This document shows positions 29,873-43,023 of a stretch of 64,000 nt of DNA, piece by piece. Under the pieces are notes generated by a model, which saw nothing but the letters and a program-made list of their open reading frames with translations, was not told where the DNA came from and did no database searches. The position numbers and the translations under genes were made by a program. Each line of letters opens with the position of its first letter. The first letter of the stretch is position 1. The stretch is from Dehalococcoidia bacterium (GTDB lineage: Bacteria; Chloroflexota; Dehalococcoidia; Lucifugimonadales; UBA3495): assembly GCA_965203675.1 (NCBI GenBank), contig CBDBDE010000002.1, forward strand, positions 600,990 through 664,989, in the 5' to 3' direction.

Positions 29873-30808
29873 ATGCCGCTAGACCCGCAAGCCCAGGCCG
29901 TTATGGATGCCGTCGCGGCCCTCGGATTCCCGGCCAACCACACCGTCTCTCCTGAAGAGGCCCGCGCCAACGGACGCGCCCGTCCCCGCGCCCCGGGCCC
30001 CGATGTCGCCCGGGTTGAAGACCGCACCATCCCCGGGCCGGACACCGAGCTTCCCGTCCGCATCTACACCCCGGAAGGGGAGGGCCCCTTCCCCATCCTG
30101 GCCTGGTTCCACGGCGGCGGCTGGGTGGTCGGAGATCTGGACTCCGCCGACGCCACCGCCCGCAGCCTGACCGTCGGCGCTCAGTGCGTCGTTGTCTCCG
30201 TGGACTACCGCCTGGCTCCCGACACCAAGTTCCCCGGCCCGGCCGAGGACTGCTACGTTGCTACCCAGTGGTGCTCCAACCACGCTGCCAGCCTGAACGC
30301 CGACCCGTCCCGGCTGGCCGTTGGCGGCGACAGCGCCGGCGGGAATCTTGCCGCTGCCGTCAGCCTTATGGCCCGGGACAGGGGCGGTCCTGACATCGGC
30401 TTCCAGTTGCTGGTCTACCCGGTGACCGAACGCAACTTCGACACTGTGTCCTACACCGACAACGCCGACGGCTACCAGTTGTCCCGGGACGGGATGATTT
30501 GGTACTGGGACCATTACCTGGCCTCCGACGCCGACGCTTCCAATCCCTACGCCGCTCCCCTGCAGGCCGGCGACCTTTCCAACCTGCCCCCGGCCCTGGT
30601 CATCACCGCCGAGTACGATCCATTGCGGGACGAGGGAGAGGCCTATGCGAAAGCGTTGGAAGCTGCGGGCGTTCTCACCACCTGCACCCGCTACGACGGC
30701 ATGATCCACGGCTTCTTCGGCATGGCCGCGGCGGTGGACAAGGGACGGCAGGCGGTGGACCAGGCGTCGTCGCTGCTCCGGTCTGCCTTTTCCCAGCCCG
30801 TCGCCTAG
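29873..30808 (+). CDS. Alpha/beta hydrolase, hormone-sensitive-lipase-like esterase
   Basis: Oxyanion 'FHGGGW', nucleophile 'GGDSAGGNLA', C-terminal 'DPLRDEG' and 'MIHGF' catalytic motifs. Confidence 0.85.
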   Translation: MPLDPQAQAVMDAVAALGFPANHTVSPEEARANGRARPRAPGPDVARVEDRTIPGPDTELPVRIYTPEGEGPFPILAWFHGGGWVVGDLDSADATARSLTVGAQCVVVSVDYRLAPDTKFPGPAEDCYVATQWCSNHAASLNADPSRLAVGGDSAGGNLAAAVSLMARDRGGPDIGFQLLVYPVTERNFDTVSYTDNADGYQLSRDGMIWYWDHYLASDADASNPYAAPLQAGDLSNLPPALVITAEYDPLRDEGEAYAKALEAAGVLTTCTRYDGMIHGFFGMAAAVDKGRQAVDQASSLLRSAFSQPVA

Positions 30809-30821
30809 AAATCCCCTGCCG

Positions 30822-31517
30822 CTATTCGGCGGCGGACGGCTCCCCGGATACTTCTGTTGCGCCGCCGCCGGGTTCCCCCGGGTTCTGGGACACCATTTCC
30901 GCCTGCTGTCGGGCCATCCACGCTTGGAGCCACCGCCGGAATTCGTCCAGCGCGGGCGGCGCAACGTAGAACACTTCGATGTCGTTGGCGAACTGGACCT
31001 GGTGCCGCTCCCCTATCAGCAGCAGCCCCGTCTCATCGGCCTGCAACGTCGAGTCAATCCTCTGGCCGATGGCCTCGTAGCGGCTGCGGTTGGCCTCAGT
31101 GAACCACTCCTGGATGCGGGACGCCACCCGCTCGCTGATCATCGGCCCCATCAGGATGCGCTGCAGGTCTATGATCTCGAACAGGACTTCCGGGTCTTCC
31201 GTGGGTTCCAGCGCCGCCCCTCTCTCAGCCTTCTCCCTCACCAGCCCGGCGCTGTGGAGGTCGGCCCCTTCCAGGTACTTGATGCCCTCGTCTCCGCCTT
31301 CCACCAGGCTTTCGCAGTAGATCCGGTGCAGGCCGCCCAGGCTGGACTCCAGCGCCGCGGTCTGGGCTTGGACCTGTTCCCAGTACCGGCCCACGATTGC
31401 TGCCCCGTCTCCATCTTCGGCATGGGGAGCGTAGAGCAGAGGCACCAGCAGCAGCTTGCGCTTACCTTGGTACTGGTCGGCGGTCGGTCGTTCGACCTGG
31501 CCTAGATGCTGGGTCAT
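30822..31517 (-). CDS. Hypothetical protein
   Basis: 231 aa from ATG 31517 (GGAGG RBS) with coding-like composition. No family recognised. Divergent from the fur-family gene. Confidence 0.5.
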   Translation of the reverse strand: MTQHLGQVERPTADQYQGKRKLLLVPLLYAPHAEDGDGAAIVGRYWEQVQAQTAALESSLGGLHRIYCESLVEGGDEGIKYLEGADLHSAGLVREKAERGAALEPTEDPEVLFEIIDLQRILMGPMISERVASRIQEWFTEANRSRYEAIGQRIDSTLQADETGLLLIGERHQVQFANDIEVFYVAPPALDEFRRWLQAWMARQQAEMVSQNPGEPGGGATEVSGEPSAAE

Positions 31518-31594
31518 GTCCTGCCTCCAAGCGGATTCGCTGTCACAATTTCCGGTCTTAAAGTATAGACAAGCCGCTGGCCTGTCGAGAACAT

Positions 31595-31645
31595 TTGACA
31601 CCGAAATTGCGCCGTGTTAACTTCACTTTTAGATACTAAGTATCT
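31595..31645 (+). promoter_or_regulatory. Candidate promoter plus operator palindrome upstream of the Fur-family gene
   Basis: -35 TTGACA (31595-31600), 17-nt spacer, -10-like TAACTT (31618-31623), then the 6-3-6 inverted repeat AGATAC-taa-GTATCT (31631-31645), 14 nt before the ATG. Confidence 0.35.
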
Positions 31646-31658
31646 TGTAATTGGAGCG

Positions 31659-32105
31659 ATGATGTCCAAGCGTGACTCTCCCATCGTAGCCCATATGTTG
31701 GATGCCCTTGGAGAGAAAGGGTACCGCGACACTGCCCCTCGCCGGGCCATCGTGCAGGCCGTCGCGCAGACGGAAAGGCATTTCACCGCCGAAGACCTGC
31801 GGGCCCAACTTCCGGAAGTGGGACGTGCCACCATCTATCGTTCCCTGAAGCTGCTGCTCGATGCCGGCGTCGTCTGCCGGGTGCTGCTGGAAGACGGCAA
31901 CCTCCACTACCAGTTGAGCCACCGCGGCCACCACCACCACCTGCTGTGCGTGGAGTGTGGCGCGTCGGAAGACCTGACCGGCTGCGATATAGAAGACCAG
32001 CTCAAGACCGTCGCCGCCGCCCACGAATTCCAGGTCAGCGGACACTGGCTTGAGATTTACGGCCGTTGCCTCAACTGCGCTATTCCTGCCGCCGCTTCGC
32101 TATAA
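31659..32105 (+). CDS. Fur-family transcriptional regulator (Zur/PerR/Fur type not resolved)
   Basis: 'RRAIVQAVAQTERHFTAEDL...ATIYRSLKLLLDAGVV' winged helix, 'HHHHLLCVECG' and 'CLNC' metal-site cysteines. Confidence 0.85.
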   Translation: MMSKRDSPIVAHMLDALGEKGYRDTAPRRAIVQAVAQTERHFTAEDLRAQLPEVGRATIYRSLKLLLDAGVVCRVLLEDGNLHYQLSHRGHHHHLLCVECGASEDLTGCDIEDQLKTVAAAHEFQVSGHWLEIYGRCLNCAIPAAASL

Positions 32106-32309
32106 CCCGCCTGGCCGGGTTATAGTCTCCTGTCCCTATAGTGCGGAGTCCTTCCTGTCGGGCTTGGCTTGCCAAGTCCGCAGTCCCGGCTCCACAATTT
32201 CCGCACACTTCCCGCATACTATTGCTTGTGCCCCCTTGCCACGAGGACAACCGCCCGGCTGGCCTCGTGATAAGGTGAGCCCGAATGTTGATGCTTGGAG
32301 GCCCGGCTG

Positions 32310-33206
32310 ATGGAACAGCGGCAATACCCTAACCCTTGGACCCCTGCCCGGTCCCGGCCAGCGGGCATCCTGGCGCCTCTGACCCTGATGTTGCTCGTGG
32401 CGTCCCTCTTGGCCTTGGGGTGCAGCGCATCCGCCACGCCTGAGGAGCCTACGGAACCAAGTCCTGCCGCAACTCCCACTGCCCCCGTCGCCGCCGCAGC
32501 TTCTCCCCTGCCAACGTCTGCAATGCCGGAAGCTTCTGGTTCCACCGACGCCCCCGCTGCCACCGCCGTCCCCGTGCCTGCCGACACGCCTGAGCCCACG
32601 AACACTCCGGCTCCGGCGGCTGCTCCAACGGAGGAAGCCGGCTCAGGCTCCGAAACCACCGTTGCCGGCGGGACCGAATTTGCAATTCAGGCCGGGGCCC
32701 GGGCCCGTTACCTCATCAGGGAACAACTGGCCAGTCTGGACTTTCCCAACGACGCCATCGGAGAAACCGGCGACGTGTCCGGCTCGATCATCTTCGACGC
32801 CGGCGGAGGGATAGTTTCTCCCGGCTCGAAAATCGTGGTCGACCTGCGGGGCCTGAGGAGCGACTCGGACCGGCGGGACGTGTACGTTAGGAACCGTTCC
32901 CTGGAGACCGACACCTATCCGAATGCCGAGTTCATTATCCGCGAGGCCGCCGGTCTGTCCTGGCCGTTGCCGTCCCAGGGGGAAGCGTCTTTCCAATTGC
33001 TGGGCGATATGACGGTGCATGGGGTGACCAGGCCCCTGACTTGGGATGTAGCCGGAAGTTTCGACGGAGATTCCTTCACCGGCCAGGCCAAGACCAATTT
33101 CACCTTTGAAGAGTTTGAAATAGACGTTCCCCGGGTGCGGGTAGTCCTCAGCGTGGACAACGACATCCGCCTGGAAGTCGACTTCACGGCGGCTGCTTCT
33201 CCTTAG
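32310..33206 (+). CDS. YceI-family lipoprotein
   Basis: Lipobox 'LLALGC', a Pro/Ala/Thr-rich linker, then a YceI-like domain ('ARYLIREQLASLDFPNDAIGETGDVSGSI', 'LLGDMTVHGVTRPLTWDV'). Confidence 0.75.
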   Translation: MEQRQYPNPWTPARSRPAGILAPLTLMLLVASLLALGCSASATPEEPTEPSPAATPTAPVAAAASPLPTSAMPEASGSTDAPAATAVPVPADTPEPTNTPAPAAAPTEEAGSGSETTVAGGTEFAIQAGARARYLIREQLASLDFPNDAIGETGDVSGSIIFDAGGGIVSPGSKIVVDLRGLRSDSDRRDVYVRNRSLETDTYPNAEFIIREAAGLSWPLPSQGEASFQLLGDMTVHGVTRPLTWDVAGSFDGDSFTGQAKTNFTFEEFEIDVPRVRVVLSVDNDIRLEVDFTAAASP

Positions 33207-33232
33207 TTCGTAAAAAGGCGGAATAAGGCGCA

Positions 33233-35335
33233 ATGATGTGGGGGCTCCAGCAGATACTGCGTCCGGTGCAATGGCTCGTCTCGTCCCTGGCTTCCCTCGG
33301 ATTCTGGCGTTACCTGGCCCTCCTGGCAATCCTGCTTGGCTCCGCCGCCGGGACTTTCGCCGTTTACGACGACTATACGGCTCCTGAGCCCAGCGCCCTG
33401 TCCGAGGAGGAACAGTTAATTCCGGTCCGCATGGGAGACCTGGTCAACAAGGTCTCCACCAGCGGCAGCCTGGCTTTCCCGGAAAGAGAGTCGGTCGCGT
33501 TCAACTCCGATGGCCGCCTTGGACGCCTTGCCGTCGCCGAGGGGCAGTGGGTTGACCGGGGCGACGCCGTGGCACGTCTGGACGATTCGTCGTTGGCCTA
33601 CCTGGGGGATGCCGTGTTGCGGGCCGAGGCCGAGCTCTGGGAGGCCGAGGATGCCCTGGGCGGCCAGGAGTTCGAGTTTGCCGTCGAGGTGCTGGCCGCC
33701 GAGGAGAAGGTACTGGCCGCCGATTCCGCCCTGGAGCAGGCTAGGGAAGCGTTGGCCGACGCCCAACAGCCCTACACCAATGATCAACTGCAGGCCCAGT
33801 ACGAGGTGGTAGCCGCGGCGGAGCTCGATTGGCAGGATGCCCGGGATGCCCTGGAAGCCCTCATCATAGACAATTCCCAGGAGCTGATCGTGGCTCTGCG
33901 GGAAGTGGCCGGGGCCGAGCTTGCCCTGGACACTTCGCGGACCAGCCTGTCCGAGTATGCCGCCGACCTGGAGTTCCAGATCCCCGAAGCTTCTCAGGCA
34001 TTCATCAACGCCACCATCGCCTTGAACGATGCGGAAAATGCTTTCGAGGAGTACGAGGACAGGAATCAGGAATGGTTGGTCCTGCGCCTCCGGGAGCTGG
34101 AAGAAATCCAGGATGACCTGGCCTCCACCCGGGGCGATCTCCAGCGCTTCCGCGCCTACGAGGAAGACCATCCCAACGCTTTCAGCCACCTGGTCAGCCA
34201 GTGGGAATTCTTCGTCGAAACCTACGAGGAGGATGAGGAGGGTCTGCTGGACCTGCTGGTGGAGCACCGCCGCTTGAAGGCCAACGTGGTGGTGGCGCGG
34301 GAAGAGTTGCGCCGCGCTGCCGAGAACCTGGGTGAGCTGCAACAGGGGCCGGACCTGCTGATGTTGGGGGATCTGGAGGCGGCCGTACAGTTGGCCGAGC
34401 TGGAGTTGGAGCAGGCCAGAGACCGGGTAACGGAGCTGGAGGAAGGCGTCGACCCTCTGCTGGTCGGCCTCCGGCAGCGCCAGGTGGAAGCGGCCGGGGC
34501 CGCTTGGGAACAGGCCCGCACCGACCTGGACGAGATGCTCGCCGGTGGAGACCCAATTGACATAAGCCTGAAGGAGAAACAGGTACAGTTGGCCGAGACC
34601 ACCCTGGAGCAGGCCCGGTACGAGTTGTCCCTGCTGTCTCAGCGGGACCGGGATCGGGAACTGGCCCTGCTGGAAGCCGACATTGCCCTGGCCCGCCAGA
34701 AGATCGCCGACGCCCGCCGGGCGTTGGAAGAGGCAACCCTGCTGGCGCCCATCGCCGGCATCGTCTCCGCAGTACACCTGGAGGAAGGGGATAACGTGGA
34801 GGCGGAGACCGTGGTAGCCGAAATCGTGGATACCAGGGTGGTGGAGATTGACGGGGTGGTGGACGAGATCGATGTGCTGTCCATCGCGGTCGGGACGGAG
34901 GCCGGGGTGACTTTCGACGCGCTCAAGGGGGAGGTGTTCGACGGGGTCGTTACGGAGATCGCCGAGGAAGGAGCCAACCAGCAGGGGGTGGTGACCTATG
35001 CGGTGAAGTCCCGGGTGGACCTCCCTGAGGGAATCGAGCTGCGGGAGGGTCTGACGGCCGTGGTGGAAATGGTGCTGAACGAGGAACGGAACGTCCTCCT
35101 GGTCCCGCAGCAGGCCCTCTATGGAACGTTCGATTCGCCAACGGTGCGGGTCATGACGGACACTGGCGCGGTGGAGCGTCCAATAACGCTGGGCAACAGC
35201 GACGATTTCTGGGTGGCGGTGCGGACCGGTCTGCAGGAGGGCGATACCATAGTCATGGAAACCGCCGAGGTGACCACCTCCGGCGCGGGGTTCCGTCAGC
35301 TCCGCACGGTATCCGGTGGGGGCCGCCGCCGTTAG
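33233..35335 (+). CDS. HlyD/MacA-type periplasmic adaptor with very long coiled coil
   Basis: N-terminal TM, barrel-sandwich segments ('GQWVDRGDAVARLDD', 'TLLAPIAGIVSAVHLEEGDNV'), about 400 aa of E/A/L/Q-rich heptad-like sequence in between. Precedes the MacB-like ABC genes. Confidence 0.75.
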   Translation: MMWGLQQILRPVQWLVSSLASLGFWRYLALLAILLGSAAGTFAVYDDYTAPEPSALSEEEQLIPVRMGDLVNKVSTSGSLAFPERESVAFNSDGRLGRLAVAEGQWVDRGDAVARLDDSSLAYLGDAVLRAEAELWEAEDALGGQEFEFAVEVLAAEEKVLAADSALEQAREALADAQQPYTNDQLQAQYEVVAAAELDWQDARDALEALIIDNSQELIVALREVAGAELALDTSRTSLSEYAADLEFQIPEASQAFINATIALNDAENAFEEYEDRNQEWLVLRLRELEEIQDDLASTRGDLQRFRAYEEDHPNAFSHLVSQWEFFVETYEEDEEGLLDLLVEHRRLKANVVVAREELRRAAENLGELQQGPDLLMLGDLEAAVQLAELELEQARDRVTELEEGVDPLLVGLRQRQVEAAGAAWEQARTDLDEMLAGGDPIDISLKEKQVQLAETTLEQARYELSLLSQRDRDRELALLEADIALARQKIADARRALEEATLLAPIAGIVSAVHLEEGDNVEAETVVAEIVDTRVVEIDGVVDEIDVLSIAVGTEAGVTFDALKGEVFDGVVTEIAEEGANQQGVVTYAVKSRVDLPEGIELREGLTAVVEMVLNEERNVLLVPQQALYGTFDSPTVRVMTDTGAVERPITLGNSDDFWVAVRTGLQEGDTIVMETAEVTTSGAGFRQLRTVSGGGRRR

Positions 35336-35364
35336 GTCCAAGTCTGCCGACAGGGATTCGCAGC

Positions 35365-36048
35365 GTGATCGAACTGCAGGACATAACCAAGGTCTACCGG
35401 ATGGGAAACGTCGAGGTGGCGGCCCTGCGGGGGGTCAGCCTGTCGGTGGCGGCCGGCGAGATGACGGCCATCATGGGGGCGTCCGGCTCGGGCAAGTCCA
35501 CGCTGATGAACATACTGGGCTGCCTGGACGTGCCGACTTCCGGCGCCTACTTGCTGGAAGGCGAGGACGTGGGAAAGCTGGGGGACGACCGGCTGGCGGG
35601 GATCCGCAACCACAAGATCGGGTTCGTGTTCCAGACCTACAACCTGCTGCCCCGCCTGTCGGCCCTGGCCAACGTGGAGCTTCCCCTGCTCTACGGCAAC
35701 GGCTCCAACCGGCGCCGCCGGGCCATGGAAGCGCTGGAGCGCGTGGGCCTGGGAGACCGGGTCCACCACAAGCCGACGGAGCTTTCCGGAGGACAGCAGC
35801 AGCGGGTGGGCATCGCCCGGGCCCTGGTCAAGGACCCGTCCCTGCTGATGGCCGACGAGCCAACGGGCAACCTGGACAGCCAGTCCAGCGAGGAGATCGT
35901 CCGAATCCTGCAGGGGCTGAACCGGGAGCAGGGACTAACGGTGGTCATCATCACCCACGAAGCGGACATCGCCGCCGCCACCAGCCGGGTGATAACCCTG
36001 CGGGACGGCCTGGTGGTGGAGGACCGGGCGCGAGCGGAGGCGGCTTGA
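35365..36048 (+). CDS. ABC transporter ATP-binding protein (MacB/LolD type)
   Basis: 'GASGSGKST', 'FVFQTYNLLPRLSALANVELP', '[15 protein letters not shown]', 'LLMADEPTGNLD'. Confidence 0.9.
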   Translation: MIELQDITKVYRMGNVEVAALRGVSLSVAAGEMTAIMGASGSGKSTLMNILGCLDVPTSGAYLLEGEDVGKLGDDRLAGIRNHKIGFVFQTYNLLPRLSALANVELPLLYGNGSNRRRRAMEALERVGLGDRVHHKPTELSGGQQQRVGIARALVKDPSLLMADEPTGNLDSQSSEEIVRILQGLNREQGLTVVIITHEADIAAATSRVITLRDGLVVEDRARAEAA

Positions 36049-36123
36049 CGGTTGACACGGCGCCGGGGAGCCGGGGAATATCCGCTACAGGATACGGGGT
36101 ATGAATCAGGCCAACGGGTGGGA

Positions 36124-39027
36124 ATGATGCCGCACCAGACGGAACCCAGCGCCAATAACGCCCTGGGGAACCTGCTCCGCAAGATGATGCGGGGCAGCGG
36201 GATTTACTCGGAAACAACGCAGACTTTCCCCGATTATCCGGGGCGGCACGCCGACGTGCTGCTGACGGCGCCGGGGCGGTCGCCGGTGGCCATCGAGGCG
36301 GAGTACCTGCCGGCGCCGGAGGCAGAAGACGACGCGAGGGCCCGGCTGGGCCTTCGCGTGGGCGGAGAGCCCCGGACAATAGAGGCGGCCGTCGCCGTGC
36401 GGTACCCGGCGGAGGTGGAGGGTGCCTACGACCTGGAAAAGACCCTGGCGGAGTGCCGCCTGTCCTACTGCGTGCTGTACGAGGACGGCAGCCGCTTCCC
36501 CGAATCCGGCTGGCTGAAAGGCGGGGTAGAGGACCTGGCCGACCTGGTGCGGCTGGTGTCGGTGCCCCAGAAGGAGGTGGACCTGGCGGCGGACAACTTG
36601 CAACAGGGCATCGAGACTGCGGCAACGGTCTTTGACCAACTGGACGGGACCTCCCCGGGGATTCCGCAGTCGCTGGCGCGGACGCTGGGCATGGCCAACG
36701 TGCCGCAGACCCGGCGGATGGCCTGCGCCATCATCGCCAACGCCCTGATTTTCCACGAGCGCATCGCGGGGATGTACGAGGGCATCAGGCCGCTGAACCT
36801 GGTGTGCGGGCCGGGAGTGGCTAATCCGCAGACCGTCACGCTGGCGGCGTGGGCGGACATCCTGAAAATCAACTACTGGCCGATCTTCGCCATCGCCCGG
36901 GACCTGCTGGGACAGGTATCGGCGGGAACGGCGGCGGAGATCCTGGCCACGCTGCGGGAGACGGCGCAACAGGTGGACTCGGCGGGAGTGACCAACGCCC
37001 ACGACCTGACGGGCCGCATCTTCCAGCGGCTCATCGCGGACCGGAAGTACCTGGCGACCTTCTACACCCTCCCCGCCTCGGCGGCCCTGCTGGCCCGGCT
37101 GGCGGTGGCGAAGATGGACGGGGTGGACTGGTCGGACGCAGAGGCCATCGGCAAGCTGCGGATTGGGGACTTCGCCTGCGGCACCGGGGCGCTGCTGTCG
37201 GCGGTGTACGAACAGATAGCGGCCCGCCACGAACGGGCCGGGGGAGACCCGGCGGCGTTGCACCGGGTGATGATGGAGGAAGTGCTGTACGGGTGCGACG
37301 TAATGCCCTCGGCGGCCCACATCACCAGCGCCACCCTTTCGGGGGTCCAGCCCGGCGTGGGATTCGGCAAGTCCCGGGTCTACACCATGCCCTACGGACG
37401 GCAATCGGACGGCACGGTAGCCATCGGGTCGCTGGAACTGCTGCAATCGTCCAACACGATGACGCTGTTCAACACCAGCGATCCGGCCTTGCAGACCGGG
37501 AGCCAGGGGGAAGAGACGGCGGCGCAGGTAAACGTGGACATTCCCGACGAGGGATTTGACCTGGTGATAATGAACCCGCCGTTCACCAGTAATACAAAAC
37601 ATCACGATGCTGACGACGGTGTGTTGAATGCTGCTTTCGCCGGCTACAACTCATCGGAAGTTGACCAGAACGAAATGGCTAACCGGCTCAGGAGATTGGC
37701 CCGCGGCATGACCTATCATGGGCACGCTGGGTTGGCGTCAGCTTTTGCATCGTTAGCACACCGAAAGCTCAAGCTAGGGGGTGTGATTGCTTTGGTTTTG
37801 CCCTTCACTGCTATCAACGGGGCATCATGGGGCAAGTTCAGAGAATTATTGGCAAAAAATTATTCTGAACTGGAGATTCTAAGCATCACCGCATCCGGGA
37901 ATGACATGTCATTTTCATCGGATACCGATATAGCGGAATGCCTAGTCATTGGTAGAAAGAATGTGGAGATCGAAAAAGAGTCTGAACTCCCACGAGCAAA
38001 TTTCACTTCTCTACGGAGACGGGCACAGGGATTCGCTCATGCGGCAACAGTTGCAAGCAGGGTAATTGGGAGAATATCCGCGCGTAGTATAGAGGATGGA
38101 CCATACGGCGGGACACCGTTAATGGTCGGAAATGAAATGGCAGGAGAGACGATTGCAGCACCTCTTTCGGATTACGAAAGCGGTTGGGGAACAGCCCGTC
38201 TAGCCGATGCCACCGTGTCACAAGTGGGACATTACCTAGCTGTTGGCAAGCTTTGGCTACCAAATATGCAGTCAGGCTTAGAGGTTCCCATGGTGCAGCT
38301 GGGCGAAATAGGACAATTAGGCGTCCACGACTCCATGTTGACATTGGCCACCCATCTTGGCCCGTTCACGAAAGAGCCACCCAGTCCGACGGCAACATAC
38401 CCAGCCCTTTACAACCACAATGCAAAGAGAGAAACCAGGCTGATTTGCGAACCTGATTCACAAATGCGTGTAAAGCAAGGGATGGAGGAAAGGGCTATCA
38501 AGCTTTGGGATACAGCCTCACGGTGTCTGATCAGCAGGGGGTTCCGTTTCAATTCACAACCTCTTGCAGTAGCTTTTGCGCAAAGCATTTGCCTCGGCGG
38601 GAGGGCATGGCCAAATGTAAAGTTGTCGAGCGAAAGGTTCGACTACGCATTTTCTATTTGGTGCAATAGCACCTTGGGGGTTATGGGCTATTGGCGCCAC
38701 TCGACCCGTCAGCAAGCAGGCCGAGGAGAAATGACTCGCGGTGGAATACGTCTTTTGCCCGTCCTGGACTTCCGCGAATTAACCGATTCGCAGTTGGCGA
38801 AGGCGGAGGAAATCTTCAACGAGTTCCGGGACAGGGAGCTGATGCCGGCCTACCTGGCGGATGCGGACCCGAACCGGGCCCTGCTGGACCGGCGGGTGGT
38901 GTGCGATCTGCTGGGGTTCGGGGAGGATGTTTACCAGGGGGTGCGGCGGCTGGCGGCCAAGTGGTGCGCCGAGCCATCGGTCCACGGCGGGAAGGCACGC
39001 CCCAAGGACGCGGGGCTGGTGATGTGA
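36124..39027 (+). CDS. Large gamma-class N6-adenine DNA methyltransferase, MmeI-like (type IIG-style) architecture
   Basis: 'ATFYTLPASAALLARL', motif I 'IGDFACGTGALLSAV', 'LYGCDVMPSAAHITSATL', motif IV 'FDLVIMNPPFTS', 'GGVIALVLPFTAI'. N-terminal 'HADVLL...VAIEAEY' resembles a PD-(D/E)xK core but lacks the Lys. About 400 aa of C-terminal TRD-like region. ATG 36124 preferred over TTG 36052. Confidence 0.8.
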   Translation: MMPHQTEPSANNALGNLLRKMMRGSGIYSETTQTFPDYPGRHADVLLTAPGRSPVAIEAEYLPAPEAEDDARARLGLRVGGEPRTIEAAVAVRYPAEVEGAYDLEKTLAECRLSYCVLYEDGSRFPESGWLKGGVEDLADLVRLVSVPQKEVDLAADNLQQGIETAATVFDQLDGTSPGIPQSLARTLGMANVPQTRRMACAIIANALIFHERIAGMYEGIRPLNLVCGPGVANPQTVTLAAWADILKINYWPIFAIARDLLGQVSAGTAAEILATLRETAQQVDSAGVTNAHDLTGRIFQRLIADRKYLATFYTLPASAALLARLAVAKMDGVDWSDAEAIGKLRIGDFACGTGALLSAVYEQIAARHERAGGDPAALHRVMMEEVLYGCDVMPSAAHITSATLSGVQPGVGFGKSRVYTMPYGRQSDGTVAIGSLELLQSSNTMTLFNTSDPALQTGSQGEETAAQVNVDIPDEGFDLVIMNPPFTSNTKHHDADDGVLNAAFAGYNSSEVDQNEMANRLRRLARGMTYHGHAGLASAFASLAHRKLKLGGVIALVLPFTAINGASWGKFRELLAKNYSELEILSITASGNDMSFSSDTDIAECLVIGRKNVEIEKESELPRANFTSLRRRAQGFAHAATVASRVIGRISARSIEDGPYGGTPLMVGNEMAGETIAAPLSDYESGWGTARLADATVSQVGHYLAVGKLWLPNMQSGLEVPMVQLGEIGQLGVHDSMLTLATHLGPFTKEPPSPTATYPALYNHNAKRETRLICEPDSQMRVKQGMEERAIKLWDTASRCLISRGFRFNSQPLAVAFAQSICLGGRAWPNVKLSSERFDYAFSIWCNSTLGVMGYWRHSTRQQAGRGEMTRGGIRLLPVLDFRELTDSQLAKAEEIFNEFRDRELMPAYLADADPNRALLDRRVVCDLLGFGEDVYQGVRRLAAKWCAEPSVHGGKARPKDAGLVM

Positions 39028-39046
39028 TGACGGGCCGGGGTAAGCC

Positions 39047-40270
39047 GTGAACCCGCTGGCGACCCTCAGCGTCGCACTGGCTTCCCTGGCAGCGAACAAG
39101 CTGCGGGCGGCGCTGACCCTGCTGGGGATAATCATCGGGGTCTCGGCGGTGATAACGCTGATGGCCATCGGCCGGGGCGTCCAGGACTCGATTACGGAAA
39201 ACCTGCGCTCCCTGGGGACCAACCTGCTGTTCGTGCAGCCCGCCGCATCAGGGGATGCAGCCGGAATGCTCACCCTGGAGGACGCTCTGGCCCTGGAAGA
39301 CCCCCTGTTCGCCCCCTCGGTGGTGGGGGTGGCCCCGGAACTCCGCAACAGCGGAACGGCCGTGGCGGGAAGGAACAACACCAACACCCAGATCGTGGGC
39401 GTCACCCCGCCCTACCAGGAGGTGCGCAACTTTCCCGTTGCCTCCGGCCAGTTCATCACCCACGGGCACGTTGACCAGATATCCCAGGTGGCGGTGCTGG
39501 GCTCCGAGGTGGCGCAGACGCTGTACGGCTTCCGCGACCCGGTGGGCCAGGCCCTGCGGCTGAACGGCCGGCAGTTCCAGGTGGTCGGGGTGCTGGAAAG
39601 CAAGGGCGGGTCCTTCCTGGGGTCCTTCGACGAGCAGGTGCTGGTGCCGATCACGACGGCCTACTACCGGCTGGGCGGAGAGCGGACGCCCCACGGCGGA
39701 GTCCAGGTGGGCAACATCAACGTCCAGGTTGCCAGCGTTGAGCAGGTGGACCAGGCAGTCCAGGAGGTCGCCACCGTGCTCCGGCTGCGGCACCGCATCA
39801 CCCGGGAGGACGACTTCGTCATCACCAGCCAGCAGGACACGGTGGAGGCGCTGACCGAGACCACCGACACCTTCATCATGTTCCTGGGCTCCATCGCCGG
39901 GATTTCCCTGCTGGTCGGCGGCATCGGGATCATGAACATCATGCTGGTGTCGGTGACGGAGAGGACCAGGGAAATCGGCATCCGCAAGGCCGTGGGGGCC
40001 AAGCGCCGGGACATCCTGCTCCAGTTCGTAGCCGAAGCGACGCTGCTGAGCCTGGGCGGGGGGGCCGCCGGGGTGGTGCTGGGCTGGCTCCTGGCCAACG
40101 CGCTGAACGGATCGGCTATCCTGGGAGGGCGTCCCACGCCCACCGCGGCCAGCCCGGACATCGCCATCCTGGCCTTGGCGGTGTCGGCGGGCATCGGGCT
40201 GTTCTTCGGGATTTACCCGGCCATCCGCGCGGCGTCGCTGCATCCCATCGAAGCCCTGCGGCACGAGTAG
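39047..40270 (+). CDS. ABC transporter permease (MacB/FtsX type)
   Basis: N-terminal TM, MacB periplasmic domain, and FtsX-type C-terminal 3-TM bundle with 'VSVTERTREIGIRKAVGAKRRDILLQF'. Confidence 0.85.
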   Translation: MNPLATLSVALASLAANKLRAALTLLGIIIGVSAVITLMAIGRGVQDSITENLRSLGTNLLFVQPAASGDAAGMLTLEDALALEDPLFAPSVVGVAPELRNSGTAVAGRNNTNTQIVGVTPPYQEVRNFPVASGQFITHGHVDQISQVAVLGSEVAQTLYGFRDPVGQALRLNGRQFQVVGVLESKGGSFLGSFDEQVLVPITTAYYRLGGERTPHGGVQVGNINVQVASVEQVDQAVQEVATVLRLRHRITREDDFVITSQQDTVEALTETTDTFIMFLGSIAGISLLVGGIGIMNIMLVSVTERTREIGIRKAVGAKRRDILLQFVAEATLLSLGGGAAGVVLGWLLANALNGSAILGGRPTPTAASPDIAILALAVSAGIGLFFGIYPAIRAASLHPIEALRHE

Positions 40271-40290
40271 GCCCGGCGAGGGAGGGAAAG

Positions 40291-40995
40291 GTGACCAAGT
40301 CATTCATAGCCCTGGCGATCATCGCAGCATTCCTGGGAGCAAGCTGGGGAGGAGCATTCATCGGCGGCATCGTCTACGGGGAGTACAGATCGGATGGCGG
40401 CCAACCCCAGGCCGCTCCCCGGTCGCCGGGCGGAGGACAGTTCACCCAGGCGGGGCGGAGCGGCGATGGGAGTGGTGGTGCAGGCGGAAGCGCGGGGCAA
40501 TCGCGCCAGGCCGGTTCAGGCCGTGGCGGGCCGAGCAACGGGGTGTTTACCCGGCAGGACGGGCGTACCGGCCAGCCGGGCGCCCAACCCGCACCGGGAC
40601 AGGACCGGGGCCCGGGATCAGATGCTGGAATGGATGCCCAGTCCTCCGCAGATGAGGCCGGCGGGCCTCCGACCCGTCCGGGTGCGGGACGGGGCGGCGT
40701 CCTGATGGGAACGATCAAGGGCGTGGCGGAAGGGAGCGTTCTCATCGTGACGGAGAGCGAAATGGAAGGCGGGACGGTATCAGCCGCCCTGTCGGAGGAA
40801 ACGGTGATCGTGACCGTGCGGAAAGCTGGGATTGATGACCTTTCCGAAGGAGTCCAGGTTGTGGCGCTGGGGCGGCGGGCCGGCGAGGAACTCACCGCAC
40901 GAGCCCTGCTTCTCAACCCGGATGGTGTGGACGTTTCCTTCCTGGGAGGGAAGCTATCCGGAGGGAGAGAGGACAGGGGAGTGCCGCAACCGTAG
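40291..40995 (+). CDS. Membrane-anchored Gly/Pro/Ser/Gln-rich hypothetical protein
   Basis: GTG start after GAGGGAGGGAAAG. One N-terminal TM, about 110 aa of low-complexity sequence, then a roughly 90-aa C-terminal globular-looking segment. Confidence 0.5.
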   Translation: MTKSFIALAIIAAFLGASWGGAFIGGIVYGEYRSDGGQPQAAPRSPGGGQFTQAGRSGDGSGGAGGSAGQSRQAGSGRGGPSNGVFTRQDGRTGQPGAQPAPGQDRGPGSDAGMDAQSSADEAGGPPTRPGAGRGGVLMGTIKGVAEGSVLIVTESEMEGGTVSAALSEETVIVTVRKAGIDDLSEGVQVVALGRRAGEELTARALLLNPDGVDVSFLGGKLSGGREDRGVPQP

Positions 40996-42573: not shown

Positions 42574-42636
42574 GCTTATAGAAAGGTGGTTGGGGGCTTT
42601 GGCAGTATATCCAGCCGGGTGAATGAGGTCCAAAAC

Positions 42637-43023
42637 ATGGTCGCGACGGAAGAAGCTAGAAAAGTTTTCCAAGATGCGCGGGCGTTATATGAAGACGCCC
42701 TCGAAATGCTGGCCCAGGACAGAATCCGCAATGCCGCGGAAAAAGCGTGGGGAGCCACCAAGAGAGCAACGGACGCGCTGGTTCTGGCACGTACCGGGGA
42801 GTTGCCTGAACTACCGGCAGAGACGGCTCATGGCCTGCGCCTCCTACAGGCAGAGGATGAATCTGTTGAGGAAGCCCGTCTCGTTGCCAGGTACTACACC
42901 CGCCAGGGGTCACTCCACGGCCACTGTTTCTACATGGGTCTCTGCGACCCTATTGCAGACACGGAGCGCCGGATACGCGAGACAATTGACTATATCCGGG
43001 ACGCTGAGAACTTGGCATCATAA
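42637..43023 (+). CDS. Small helical protein, PaREP1/HEPN-like (tentative)
   Basis: 128 aa. 'AAEKAWGATKRATDALVLA' and 'GSLHGHCFYMG' align with 'ASEKVWGAANYALKAVAVQ' and 'ARAIHFNFYEN' of the paralog at 54819-55346. Confidence 0.5.
   Translation: MVATEEARKVFQDARALYEDALEMLAQDRIRNAAEKAWGATKRATDALVLARTGELPELPAETAHGLRLLQAEDESVEEARLVARYYTRQGSLHGHCFYMGLCDPIADTERRIRETIDYIRDAENLAS

What the first reader, a model, noticed from the sequence alone, without database searches (positions are those of the whole stretch)
37590..38790. Abrupt intragenic GC drop starting right after the NPPF catalytic motif of the methyltransferase (mosaic gene / swapped specificity module)
Seen: the 5' half of the ORF is about 70-75% GC (hand count of line 36301-36360: 45/60). 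From about 37590, immediately after 'VIMNPPFTS', to about 38790 the sequence falls to about 45-48% (lines 37801-37860: 27/60; 38401-38460: 29/60). The last ~240 nt return to high GC, and the reading frame is uninterrupted. Inference: the C-terminal methyltransferase subdomain plus putative target-recognition domain came from a lower-GC donor by recombination inside the gene. This is domain shuffling that would change target specificity, as is known for TRDs of type I and type IIG systems.
Basis: seen in the sequence. Interest (0 to 1): 0.6.

Follow-up and report, generated by a model that had tools for sequence, protein, structure and literature searches.

The report
Swapped specificity cassette in restriction-methylase gene
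A 1.17-kb low-GC block inside a DNA-methylase/restriction-type gene of a marine Chloroflexota genome is a real exchangeable module. It probably sets the DNA target and was replaced by recombination, which is a known way for such enzymes to change specificity, and the low GC belongs to the whole gene family's module pool rather than to one identifiable foreign donor.

Summary
The gene at 36124-39027 has GC3 of 0.88 upstream, 0.50 in 37591-38757 and 0.89 in the tail, with the frame intact. The low block ranks in the lowest 0.5% of same-size genome windows.

A syntenic same-genus relative (L002) matches at 91% nt up to 37592 and at 92% from 38760. Between those points there is essentially no DNA similarity and 46% amino-acid identity. 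Trees of the two parts conflict (AU p=7e-52).

The protein is a ~967-aa type IIG-like enzyme:
- an N-terminal PD-(D/E)XK-like domain;
- a helical domain;
- a gamma-class N6-adenine methyltransferase with NPPF;
- a beta-rich putative target-recognition domain;
- a conserved helical tail.

The exchanged block is the methyltransferase C-lobe plus that putative recognition domain.

The family has at least 498 loci in the scanned genomes, and nearly all 80 loci retrieved are Chloroflexota/Dehalococcoidia MAGs. Identity in the backbone and in the cassette is uncoupled across it. Breakpoints recur just after NPPF and near aa 880. All 87 genes examined show the GC3 trough.

The mosaic reading therefore holds. 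A lower-GC donor organism is not shown: the closest cassettes are only 56-65% identical, and the three whose DNA was fetched lie in high-GC hosts. This is a new member of a known kind.

The parts
36124..39027 (+). Whole gene: 967-aa type IIG-like N6-adenine methyltransferase / putative restriction enzyme. The ATG at 36124 is the start on record (P0002). The mechanical ORF opens at a TTG at 36052. The stop is 39025-39027.
   Evidence: P0002 100% identical, 967 aa. Pfam Eco57I PF07669 E 1.7e-7. Foldseek hits: BpuSI 3s1s E 3.7e-15, BrxX/PglX, CamA, DrdV.
36124..36522 (+). N-terminal alpha/beta domain (aa 1-133), PD-(D/E)XK-like, with invariant E7, D44 and E58-A-E60.
   Evidence: AF2 models (pLDDT 92.9 for the domain alone). 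Invariant residues. Fold hits are weak: DrdV nuclease-bearing chain E 0.043, then RecU, Cas4-like and Bax1.
36526..37038 (+). All-helical connector domain (aa 135-305).
   Evidence: Secondary structure of the AF2 model.
37072..37590 (+). Conserved N-lobe of the methyltransferase (aa 317-489). Motif I DFACGTGALL is at 37168-37197 and motif IV NPPF at 37573-37584.
   Evidence: (invariant F350, G353, G355, N484-F487).
37593..38757 (+). Exchanged low-GC cassette (aa ~490-878), GC 0.511 and GC3 0.50. It has no DNA similarity to the syntenic relative L002 apart from one 93-nt, 71% match.
   Evidence: blastn, junction alignment, change-point fit aa 489/881, composition.
37591..37959 (+). Methyltransferase C-lobe inside the cassette (aa 490-612: helices 503-548, strands 549-560, 580-588 and 605-612).
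   Evidence: AF2 model. Pfam Eco57I match runs to residue 612 of the 991-aa ORF translation P0001, which is aa 588 in the 967-aa numbering used here.
37993..38748 (+). Beta-rich putative target-recognition domain inside the cassette (aa 624-875). This is the least conserved stretch of the family.
   Evidence: AF2 model, family conservation profile, whole-length fold alignments to BpuSI, CamA and DrdV, which carry C-terminal TRDs.
38758..39024 (+). Conserved high-GC helical tail (aa 879-967), which serves as the 3' homology arm. It is 88-92% nt identical to L002.
35365..36048 (+). ABC-transporter ATPase gene, forming the left edge of the site into which the whole methylase gene is inserted.
   Evidence: Pfam ABC_tran E 8e-34. 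Empty sites in relatives.
39047..40270 (+). MacB/FtsX-type permease gene, forming the right edge of the insertion site.
   Evidence: Pfam MacB_PCD plus FtsX. In 10 of 12 relatives' loci it lies directly after the ATPase.

Best explanation
The gene encodes a solitary single-chain type IIG-like enzyme. It has a nuclease-like domain, a helical connector, a gamma-class N6-adenine methyltransferase, a putative target-recognition domain and a conserved tail.

Its family is built as two conserved arms around one exchangeable cassette. The arms are 1.47 kb at the 5' end and 0.27 kb at the 3' end. The cassette is about 1.17 kb and holds the methyltransferase C-lobe plus the putative recognition domain.

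In the window's lineage, or in its sister lineage, the cassette was replaced by a double crossover or gene conversion within the conserved arms, using another member of the same family as donor. The arms and the flanking transporter genes continued to be inherited vertically.

The low GC3 is a property of the family's cassette pool and travels with the cassette type. It is not a mark of one lower-GC donor organism.

Shown: the mosaic structure, the breakpoints, the phylogenetic conflict, and the family-wide modularity and trough. Inferred: that the cassette sets the DNA target, so the swap changed methylation (and, if the nuclease is active, cleavage) specificity, and that diversity is maintained by phage-driven selection.
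For: Comparison with the syntenic relative L002:
- L002 has the same Fur-YceI-MFP-ABC-methylase-permease order.
- It matches at 86.9% nt over 30020-36027, 91.3% over 36068-37592 and 92.3% over 38760-40437, with no match between the last two.
- The junctions are sharp and in frame.
- Protein identity to P0003 is 89-98% for aa 26-500, 38-58% for 501-900 and 88% for 901-991 (P0001 numbering).

Phylogeny:
- In the N-part tree, the window and P0003 are sisters (SH-aLRT 99).
- In the cassette tree they fall on opposite sides of a branch with support 100.
- The AU test rejects holding them together (p 7e-52) and rejects the 9-member backbone clade (p 7e-95).

Family-wide modularity:
- Backbone and cassette identities are nearly uncoupled (Spearman 0.17).
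- Some pairs have backbone 0.94-0.99 with cassette 0.45-0.57. Others have backbone 0.70-0.71 with cassette 0.90-0.96.
- The left breakpoint falls at aa 473-492 in 14 of 18 pairs. The right breakpoint is mostly at 876-887, with alternatives near 755-804.

Composition:
- Cassette GC3 is below backbone GC3 in 87 of 87 genes (means 62 against 80 and 82). The window has the deepest trough.
- The trough is equally deep at invariant and variable amino-acid columns.
- Cassette GC3 follows cassette type (mean difference 0.017 at >=85% cassette identity; 0.002-0.05 in the nine such pairs whose backbones are <80% identical).

Other:
- The window protein keeps all family-invariant residues.
- The fold matches type IIG/IIL enzymes and methyltransferases with C-terminal TRDs.
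- Allelic TRD diversity in type IIG genes of close relatives is documented (PMC2853133).
Against: - No donor is identified. The best cassette match is 65% identity.
- Polarity is unresolved. L002's cassette type is shared with two other members of the backbone clade, which hints that the window is the recipient, but that clade carries at least 5 cassette types.
- Specificity change is untested, and no methylome or enzymology exists.
- The nuclease motif is D..ExE rather than D..ExK, and the domain's fold hits are weak, so restriction activity is uncertain.
- Raw reads could not be checked.
- The cause of the low GC3 in the cassette pool is not established.
Confidence: 0.85

Rival explanations
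1. The cassette was imported directly from a lower-GC organism, so its composition reflects that donor's genome.
For: Cassette GC of 0.51 and GC3 of 0.50 are about 5 sd below the host gene mean of 0.82. The drop is uniform across conserved and variable codons, as expected for foreign DNA. The window has the deepest trough of the 87 genes.
Against: - Every family member examined has the trough (87 of 87).
- The nearest cassette relatives whose DNA was fetched (P0094, P0122, P0124) lie in hosts with 61-63.5% GC flanks.
- The exhaustive search found the module only in this ~970-aa architecture.
- Of the 80 loci retrieved (the 80 best-scoring of at least 498), nearly all are Chloroflexota/Dehalococcoidia MAGs with 53-70% GC flanks.
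Confidence: 0.12
2. The enzyme is a stand-alone (orphan) methyltransferase with a degenerate nuclease-like domain. Cassette exchange would then vary an epigenetic or protective methylation pattern, not a restriction specificity.
For: The catalytic lysine of PD-(D/E)XK is replaced (E58-A-E60). The N-domain fold hits are weak (best E 0.043). No partner genes are conserved nearby; the commonest neighbour occurs in 12 of 85 loci.
Against: - E7, D44, E58 and E60 are invariant or nearly invariant across the family, which suggests a retained active site. From memory, BamHI uses a D..ExE site.
- The full-length fold match is best to the type IIG endonuclease BpuSI.
- The family shows patchy distribution, several copies per genome, and insertion at a site that holds a different RM system in a congener. 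All of this is typical of restriction systems.
Confidence: 0.25
3. Assembly chimera: the assembler joined reads of two family members within the conserved arms.
For: The arms are conserved enough (about 90% nt) to mislead an assembler. The exact protein is known from one contig only. Reads could not be examined.
Against: - It would need two switches, one of them in a 270-nt arm, both in frame.
- No second family copy or cassette exists in this 3-contig, 4.39-Mb assembly.
- The same mosaic pattern recurs in dozens of independent assemblies, including tandem paralogs on single chromosomes.
- All family-invariant residues are present.
Confidence: 0.03
4. In-situ accelerated divergence of the segment (hypermutation or a diversity-generating retroelement) without any exchange.
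For: The cassette is homologous along its whole length to other family cassettes and keeps scaffold residues.
Against: - Near-identical cassettes sit on backbones only 70% identical.
- The AU test rejects vertical descent.
- Synonymous composition differs even at invariant residues.
- Boundaries are sharp to within a few nt.
- There is no template copy in the genome and no flanking repeats.
Confidence: 0.02

Closest known systems
BpuSI and other type IIG (Eco57I-like) restriction-modification enzymes
   Same: Single chain with an N-terminal nuclease-type domain, a helical connector, a gamma-class N6-adenine methyltransferase (Pfam Eco57I, NPPF) and a C-terminal recognition domain. BpuSI is the best structural match over the full length (3s1s, E 3.7e-15).
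   Different: Only about 12% sequence identity. TM-scores are modest (0.35-0.39). The nuclease motif is D..ExE rather than D..ExK. An extra conserved 89-aa helical tail follows the TRD. No biochemical data exist.
Allelic TRD diversity of type IIG genes in closely related genomes (C. jejuni, S. thermophilus; Furuta et al. 2010, PMC2853133)
   Same: Homologous genes at the same locus in close relatives, with conserved parts aligned and the recognition region unalignable. [quoted passage not shown]
   Different: Here the exchanged unit starts immediately after catalytic motif IV and so includes the methyltransferase C-lobe. It is bounded on the 3' side by a conserved tail. The pattern is documented across at least 87 genes, with recurrent breakpoints and a family-wide GC3 trough.
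MmeI family / DrdV (type IIL)
   Same: Same domain order. DrdV appears among the structural hits for the whole protein (E about 3e-12) and is the top, though weak, hit for the N-terminal domain. From memory, specificity in that family is set by the TRD and can be re-engineered.
   Different: No Pfam MmeI-domain models were matched at E <= 0.01. The catalytic lysine is absent. The cleavage mode is unknown.
Type I HsdS target-recognition-domain shuffling
   Same: Conserved regions act as recombination arms around variable recognition modules, giving new specificities. This is a known driver of RM diversity (PMC3077401 and PMC5399793, listed).
   Different: Different architecture: a separate S subunit with two TRDs. 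No silent cassettes or invertase are present here.
BREX PglX/BrxX methyltransferase
   Same: Structural similarity of the methyltransferase plus C-terminal region (9ewz, 8c45; E 1e-14 to 1e-12).
   Different: No BREX partner genes nearby. PADLOC PglX hit is only E 1.5e-4 over 60 residues. The NCBIfam score of 12.6 is far below the cut-off of 900.

Membership tests
Type IIG restriction-modification enzymes | Gamma-class N6-adenine methyltransferase domain with motif I (xxFxGxG) and motif IV NPP(Y/F) in the same chain | tested here: met
   DFACGTGALL and NPPF are present and invariant. Pfam Eco57I scores 31.9 bits against a cut-off of 25.3.
Type IIG restriction-modification enzymes | Endonuclease domain fused to the methyltransferase, with a catalytic PD-(D/E)XK or equivalent site | tested here: inconclusive
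   The N-terminal alpha/beta domain has invariant D44 and E58-x-E60 on adjacent strands. The lysine is missing. Fold hits to DrdV, RecU and Cas4-like nucleases reach only E 0.04-0.3.
Type IIG restriction-modification enzymes | Target-recognition domain in the same polypeptide, C-terminal to the methyltransferase | tested here: met
   A beta-rich domain at aa 624-875 follows the methyltransferase fold. Full-length alignments to BpuSI, CamA, M.BseCI and DrdV. It is the least conserved part of the family. DNA binding itself was not tested.
Type IIG restriction-modification enzymes | Sequence-specific cleavage and methylation by the one protein | not testable with these tools
   Needs enzymology or methylome data.
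MmeI family (type IIL) | Sequence membership in the MmeI N-terminal, helical, methyltransferase, TRD and C-terminal domain families | tested here: not met
   The Pfam scan at E <= 0.01 returned only Eco57I and a sub-threshold MTS hit. No PDB sequence match to MmeI.
BREX PglX | Encoded within a BREX gene cluster and matching PglX models above the cut-off | tested here: not met
   Neighbours are transporter genes. NCBIfam BREX-6 PglX scores 12.6 bits against a cut-off of 900. No neighbour is conserved across 85 loci.
Recombining specificity-cassette genes (TRD swapping by homologous recombination) | Conserved arms with a variable module, and phylogenetic incongruence between the arms and the module | tested here: met
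Phase-variable shufflon or inverting hsdS-type switch | Silent cassettes, inverted repeats or a site-specific recombinase nearby | tested here: not met
   No second copy or cassette in the genome. Only short chance-level repeats. No recombinase among the neighbours.

The most novel reading that the evidence does not exclude
The GC3 trough is seen in every one of the 87 family genes examined, is uniform across conserved and variable codons, and travels with the cassette type. It may not reflect foreign origin at all. It could instead be the signature of a long-lived, balanced pool of specificity cassettes. Each cassette would be rare in its population and too divergent to recombine homologously, and so would escape the GC-biased gene conversion or selection that keeps GC3 at 80-90% in the conserved arms and the rest of these genomes. 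The family would then be a natural internal control for what maintains high GC in bacteria. The recurrent breakpoint right after NPPF would mark the edge of the recombining arm.
Probability: 0.2. Interest if true: 0.6.

Novelty: new member of a known kind. Interest (0 to 1): 0.38.

Why it matters
This is a clean, well-bounded natural example of specificity-module exchange in a single-chain restriction-modification-type enzyme from uncultured marine Chloroflexota. The family has no curated whole-protein model and no solved structure.

The conserved arms and recurrent breakpoints show where chimeras are tolerated, including inside the catalytic domain just after motif IV. That is useful for engineering methyltransferase or restriction specificities.

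The family-wide synonymous GC trough cautions against reading an intragenic GC drop as proof of a low-GC donor. It may also say something about how GC content is maintained.

The same transporter spacer holds a different RM system in a congener, marking a local integration hot spot for defence genes.

Tried and rejected
- Sequence search of the PDB, with the protein and with a family profile, gave only marginal hits. Structure prediction was needed.
- NCBIfam and PADLOC gave no family-level assignment.
- A search for conserved neighbour genes across 85 loci found none. The commonest, a small pair of ORFs upstream, occurs in 12 loci. A multi-gene system (BREX, MADS, type I) was therefore rejected.
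- A diversity-generating retroelement, shufflon or silent-cassette mechanism was rejected. The genome has no second copy, and there are no meaningful direct or inverted repeats around the cassette.
- Amino-acid composition as the cause of the GC drop was rejected. GC2 is unchanged (0.48 to 0.49), GC1 falls from 0.67 to 0.54, but by far the largest fall is at third positions (0.88 to 0.50), and GC3 is just as low at codons for family-invariant residues.
- Faster protein evolution as the cause was rejected, because GC3 is equally low at invariant columns.
- The search for a donor found nothing above 65% identity. The word-indexed search was, and the exhaustive search of 1.84 billion representatives with the cassette alone was.
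- The fold search with the N-terminal domain alone was only weakly informative.
- Literature searches for this family in SAR202 found nothing specific.
Full report
**Observation.** The ORF 36052-39027 (database start ATG 36124, 967 aa, P0002) is uninterrupted.
- GC in 200-nt windows is 0.65-0.72 up to about 37500, 0.445-0.54 from 37500 to 38800, and 0.63-0.69 afterwards.
- The change is chiefly synonymous. GC1/GC2/GC3 is 0.67/0.48/0.88 in 36124-37590, 0.54/0.49/0.50 in 37591-38757 and 0.73/0.42/0.89 in 38758-39024.
- Host genes average GC3 0.82 (sd 0.06). Only 2 of 973 long ORFs contain a 389-codon stretch with GC3 <= 0.55, and the other one is low-GC3 along its whole length.
- The block's GC of 0.511 is in the lowest 0.5% of equal-size windows of the 4.39-Mb genome.
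- NPPF (nt 37573-37584) lies just before the drop.

**What the protein is.** Pfam finds only the Eco57I-type N6-adenine methyltransferase domain. PADLOC and NCBIfam give sub-threshold methyltransferase hits, and the PDB has no sequence relative.

An AlphaFold2 model built on a 141-sequence alignment (mean pLDDT 83.6, pTM 0.86) shows these parts:
- an alpha/beta domain (aa 1-133);
- a helical domain (aa 135-305);
- the methyltransferase fold (aa 317-612), with DFACGTGALL and NPPF;
- a beta-rich domain (aa 624-875);
- a helical tail (aa 879-967).

Foldseek against the PDB gives the type IIG endonuclease BpuSI as best match (E 3.7e-15). It is followed by BrxX/PglX, CamA, the type IIL enzyme DrdV and M.BseCI, all gamma-class adenine methyltransferases with C-terminal recognition domains.

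The N-terminal domain carries invariant E7, D44, E58 and E60 on the strands where PD-(D/E)XK nucleases hold their catalytic residues. Its own fold search is weak, however (DrdV E 0.043, then RecU, Cas4-like and Bax1), and the lysine is replaced. I therefore call the protein type IIG-like and leave nuclease activity open.

**Is it mosaic?** Separate searches with aa 26-500 and aa 515-915 give different top relatives:
- For the first part, P0003 at 94% identity, and eleven cluster representatives at 82-94%.
- For the second part, nothing above 65%.

P0003 is 89-98% identical over aa 26-500, 38-58% over 501-900 and 88% over 901-991. Its contig (L002) has the same gene order: Fur, YceI, membrane-fusion protein, ABC ATPase, methylase, permease.

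At DNA level the window matches L002 as follows:
- 86.9% over 30020-36027;
- 91.3% over 36068-37592;
- nothing over 37593-38759, apart from a 93-nt, 71% match;
- 92.3% over 38760-40437.

The junctions are sharp and in frame. A three-segment change-point fit puts them at aa 489 and 881.

In a tree of the N part, the window and P0003 are sisters (support 99). In a tree of the cassette they lie on opposite sides of the deepest, fully supported split. The AU test rejects holding them together (p 7e-52) and rejects the nine-member backbone clade (p 7e-95).

This is allelic replacement of an internal cassette by recombination. In-situ divergence does not fit these data.

**The family.** A scan of species-representative genomes found at least 498 loci. 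Nearly all of the 80 retrieved are Chloroflexota/Dehalococcoidia MAGs, often with two or more copies per genome and sometimes in tandem.

Among 282 full-length members:
- Backbone and cassette identities are almost uncoupled (Spearman 0.17).
- Pairs with 94-99% backbone identity can have 45-57% cassette identity.
- Pairs with 70% backbone identity can share 90-96% identical cassettes.
- Paralogs within one genome show both patterns.

Breakpoints recur. The left one falls at aa 473-492, mostly 487-490, directly after NPPF, in 14 of 18 pairs. The right one is usually at aa 876-887, with alternatives near 755-804.

An exhaustive HMMER search of 1.84 billion representatives with the cassette alone finds it only at positions of about 490-880 of ~970-aa proteins or their fragments, with a best identity of 56%. 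The cassette is therefore one allele of the family's own variable module and was not borrowed from another protein type.

**The GC trough.**
- All 87 genes for which I had DNA have lower GC3 in the cassette than in the N part (means 61.6 against 79.9, and 81.9 in the tail). The window shows the largest difference, 38 points.
- The trough is as deep at codons for family-invariant residues as at variable ones: 0.64 against 0.61 family-wide, and 0.46 against 0.54 in the window. In the N part the values are about 0.8.
- Cassette GC3 follows cassette type. The mean difference is 0.017 for pairs with >=85% cassette identity, and 0.002-0.05 in the nine such pairs whose backbones are <80% identical and differ by 0.02-0.07 in GC3.
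- The cassette relatives whose DNA I fetched (P0094, P0122, P0124) sit in hosts with 61-63.5% GC flanks and show the trough themselves.

Low GC is thus a property of the cassette pool. A specific lower-GC donor organism is neither needed nor found. Why the pool is GC3-poor is open. One possibility is rapid turnover through a wider, lower-GC host range. Another is escape of rare, non-recombining cassettes from GC-biased conversion or selection.

**Context.**
- The whole gene is itself an insertion. In 10 of 12 relatives' loci the ABC ATPase gene is followed within about 50 nt by the permease gene.
- Among eight same-genus genomes, the orthologous insertion is found only in the window's genome and in G005, which appears to be the genome that carries L002 (94% N-arm identity next to the same frame-shifted permease).
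- In congener G006 the same spacer holds a different, low-GC module of about 3.2 kb. It encodes a C5-cytosine methyltransferase, an HNH endonuclease and Vsr.
- No neighbour is conserved across family loci, so the gene acts alone.
- The genome has no second copy or silent cassette. The region has no meaningful repeats. This excludes a shufflon or a retroelement-driven mechanism.

**Comparison and verdict.** Allelic diversity of the recognition domain in type IIG genes of close relatives, RM genes inserted into operon-like clusters, and allelic substitution by other RM types are all documented (PMC2853133). TRD shuffling is classic for type I systems (papers listed). This case is a new member of that known kind, in an uncharacterised Chloroflexota family.

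Three features are particular to it:
- The exchange unit begins right after catalytic motif IV and includes the methyltransferase C-lobe.
- A conserved 89-aa tail serves as the 3' arm.
- The synonymous GC trough is family-wide.

The functional consequence, a new target sequence, is inferred.

Noticed in passing
window 36030-39046; L087 1444-1501; L098 8992-12197: The ATPase-permease spacer of the MFP-ABC-permease operon is occupied by this methylase gene in G000 and G005. It is empty in G001, G002, G003, G007 and more distant relatives. In congener G006 it holds a different low-GC module of about 3.2 kb (C5-cytosine methyltransferase, HNH endonuclease, Vsr). This looks like an integration hot spot for RM systems.
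   Followed up: partly
L035 9349-9558; L067 9741-9953; L009 9618-9677; L052 10068-10139; L022 6001-6090: Orphan fragments of the conserved C-terminal tail (53-85% identical to aa ~880-967) lie 0.4-1.2 kb downstream of the intact family gene, or in L022 just upstream. They may be displaced 3' ends left by earlier replacements.
   Followed up: no
L023 2896-5787 and 6001-8874; L051 3030-5849 and 6001-8895; L057 2766-5669 and 6001-8880: Tandem paralogous copies of the family gene. In L023 the two copies share 99% identical N parts but only 57% identical cassettes. In other genomes the paralogs share the cassette and tail but not the N part (L027/L056).
   Followed up: partly
L002 10922-12144: In the syntenic relative the permease downstream of the methylase is called as two ORFs (268 and 142 aa). 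It also matches in two pieces in G005, so it is probably frame-shifted there.
   Followed up: no
L002 7900-7950: Upstream of the methylase start, L002 carries extra sequence with two short palindromes (GGGGGATGCATCCCCC and CCCCCTGAATTCAGGGGG) that is absent from the window.
   Followed up: no
family loci, e.g. L008 5285-5949: A small two-ORF pair (about 91 and 122 aa, same strand), possibly a toxin-antitoxin pair, sits immediately upstream of the family gene in 8-12 of 85 loci.
   Followed up: no
window 42586-43023: A 145-aa ORF matches the PaREP1/PaREP8 family (E 1e-7), in a local GC dip after the GMC oxidoreductase gene.
   Followed up: no
genome G000, e.g. C3 1541101-1559866 and C1 435301-440666: The genome has 54 islands with GC <= 0.52 in 1.17-kb windows, several of them clustered on contig C3 at 1.54-1.65 Mb. 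These may be further acquired or defence regions.
   Followed up: no
L004 71-4848: One close family member (P0007) lies about 2 kb downstream of a type I-E CRISPR-Cas operon, on a contig end rich in small unknown ORFs.
   Followed up: no
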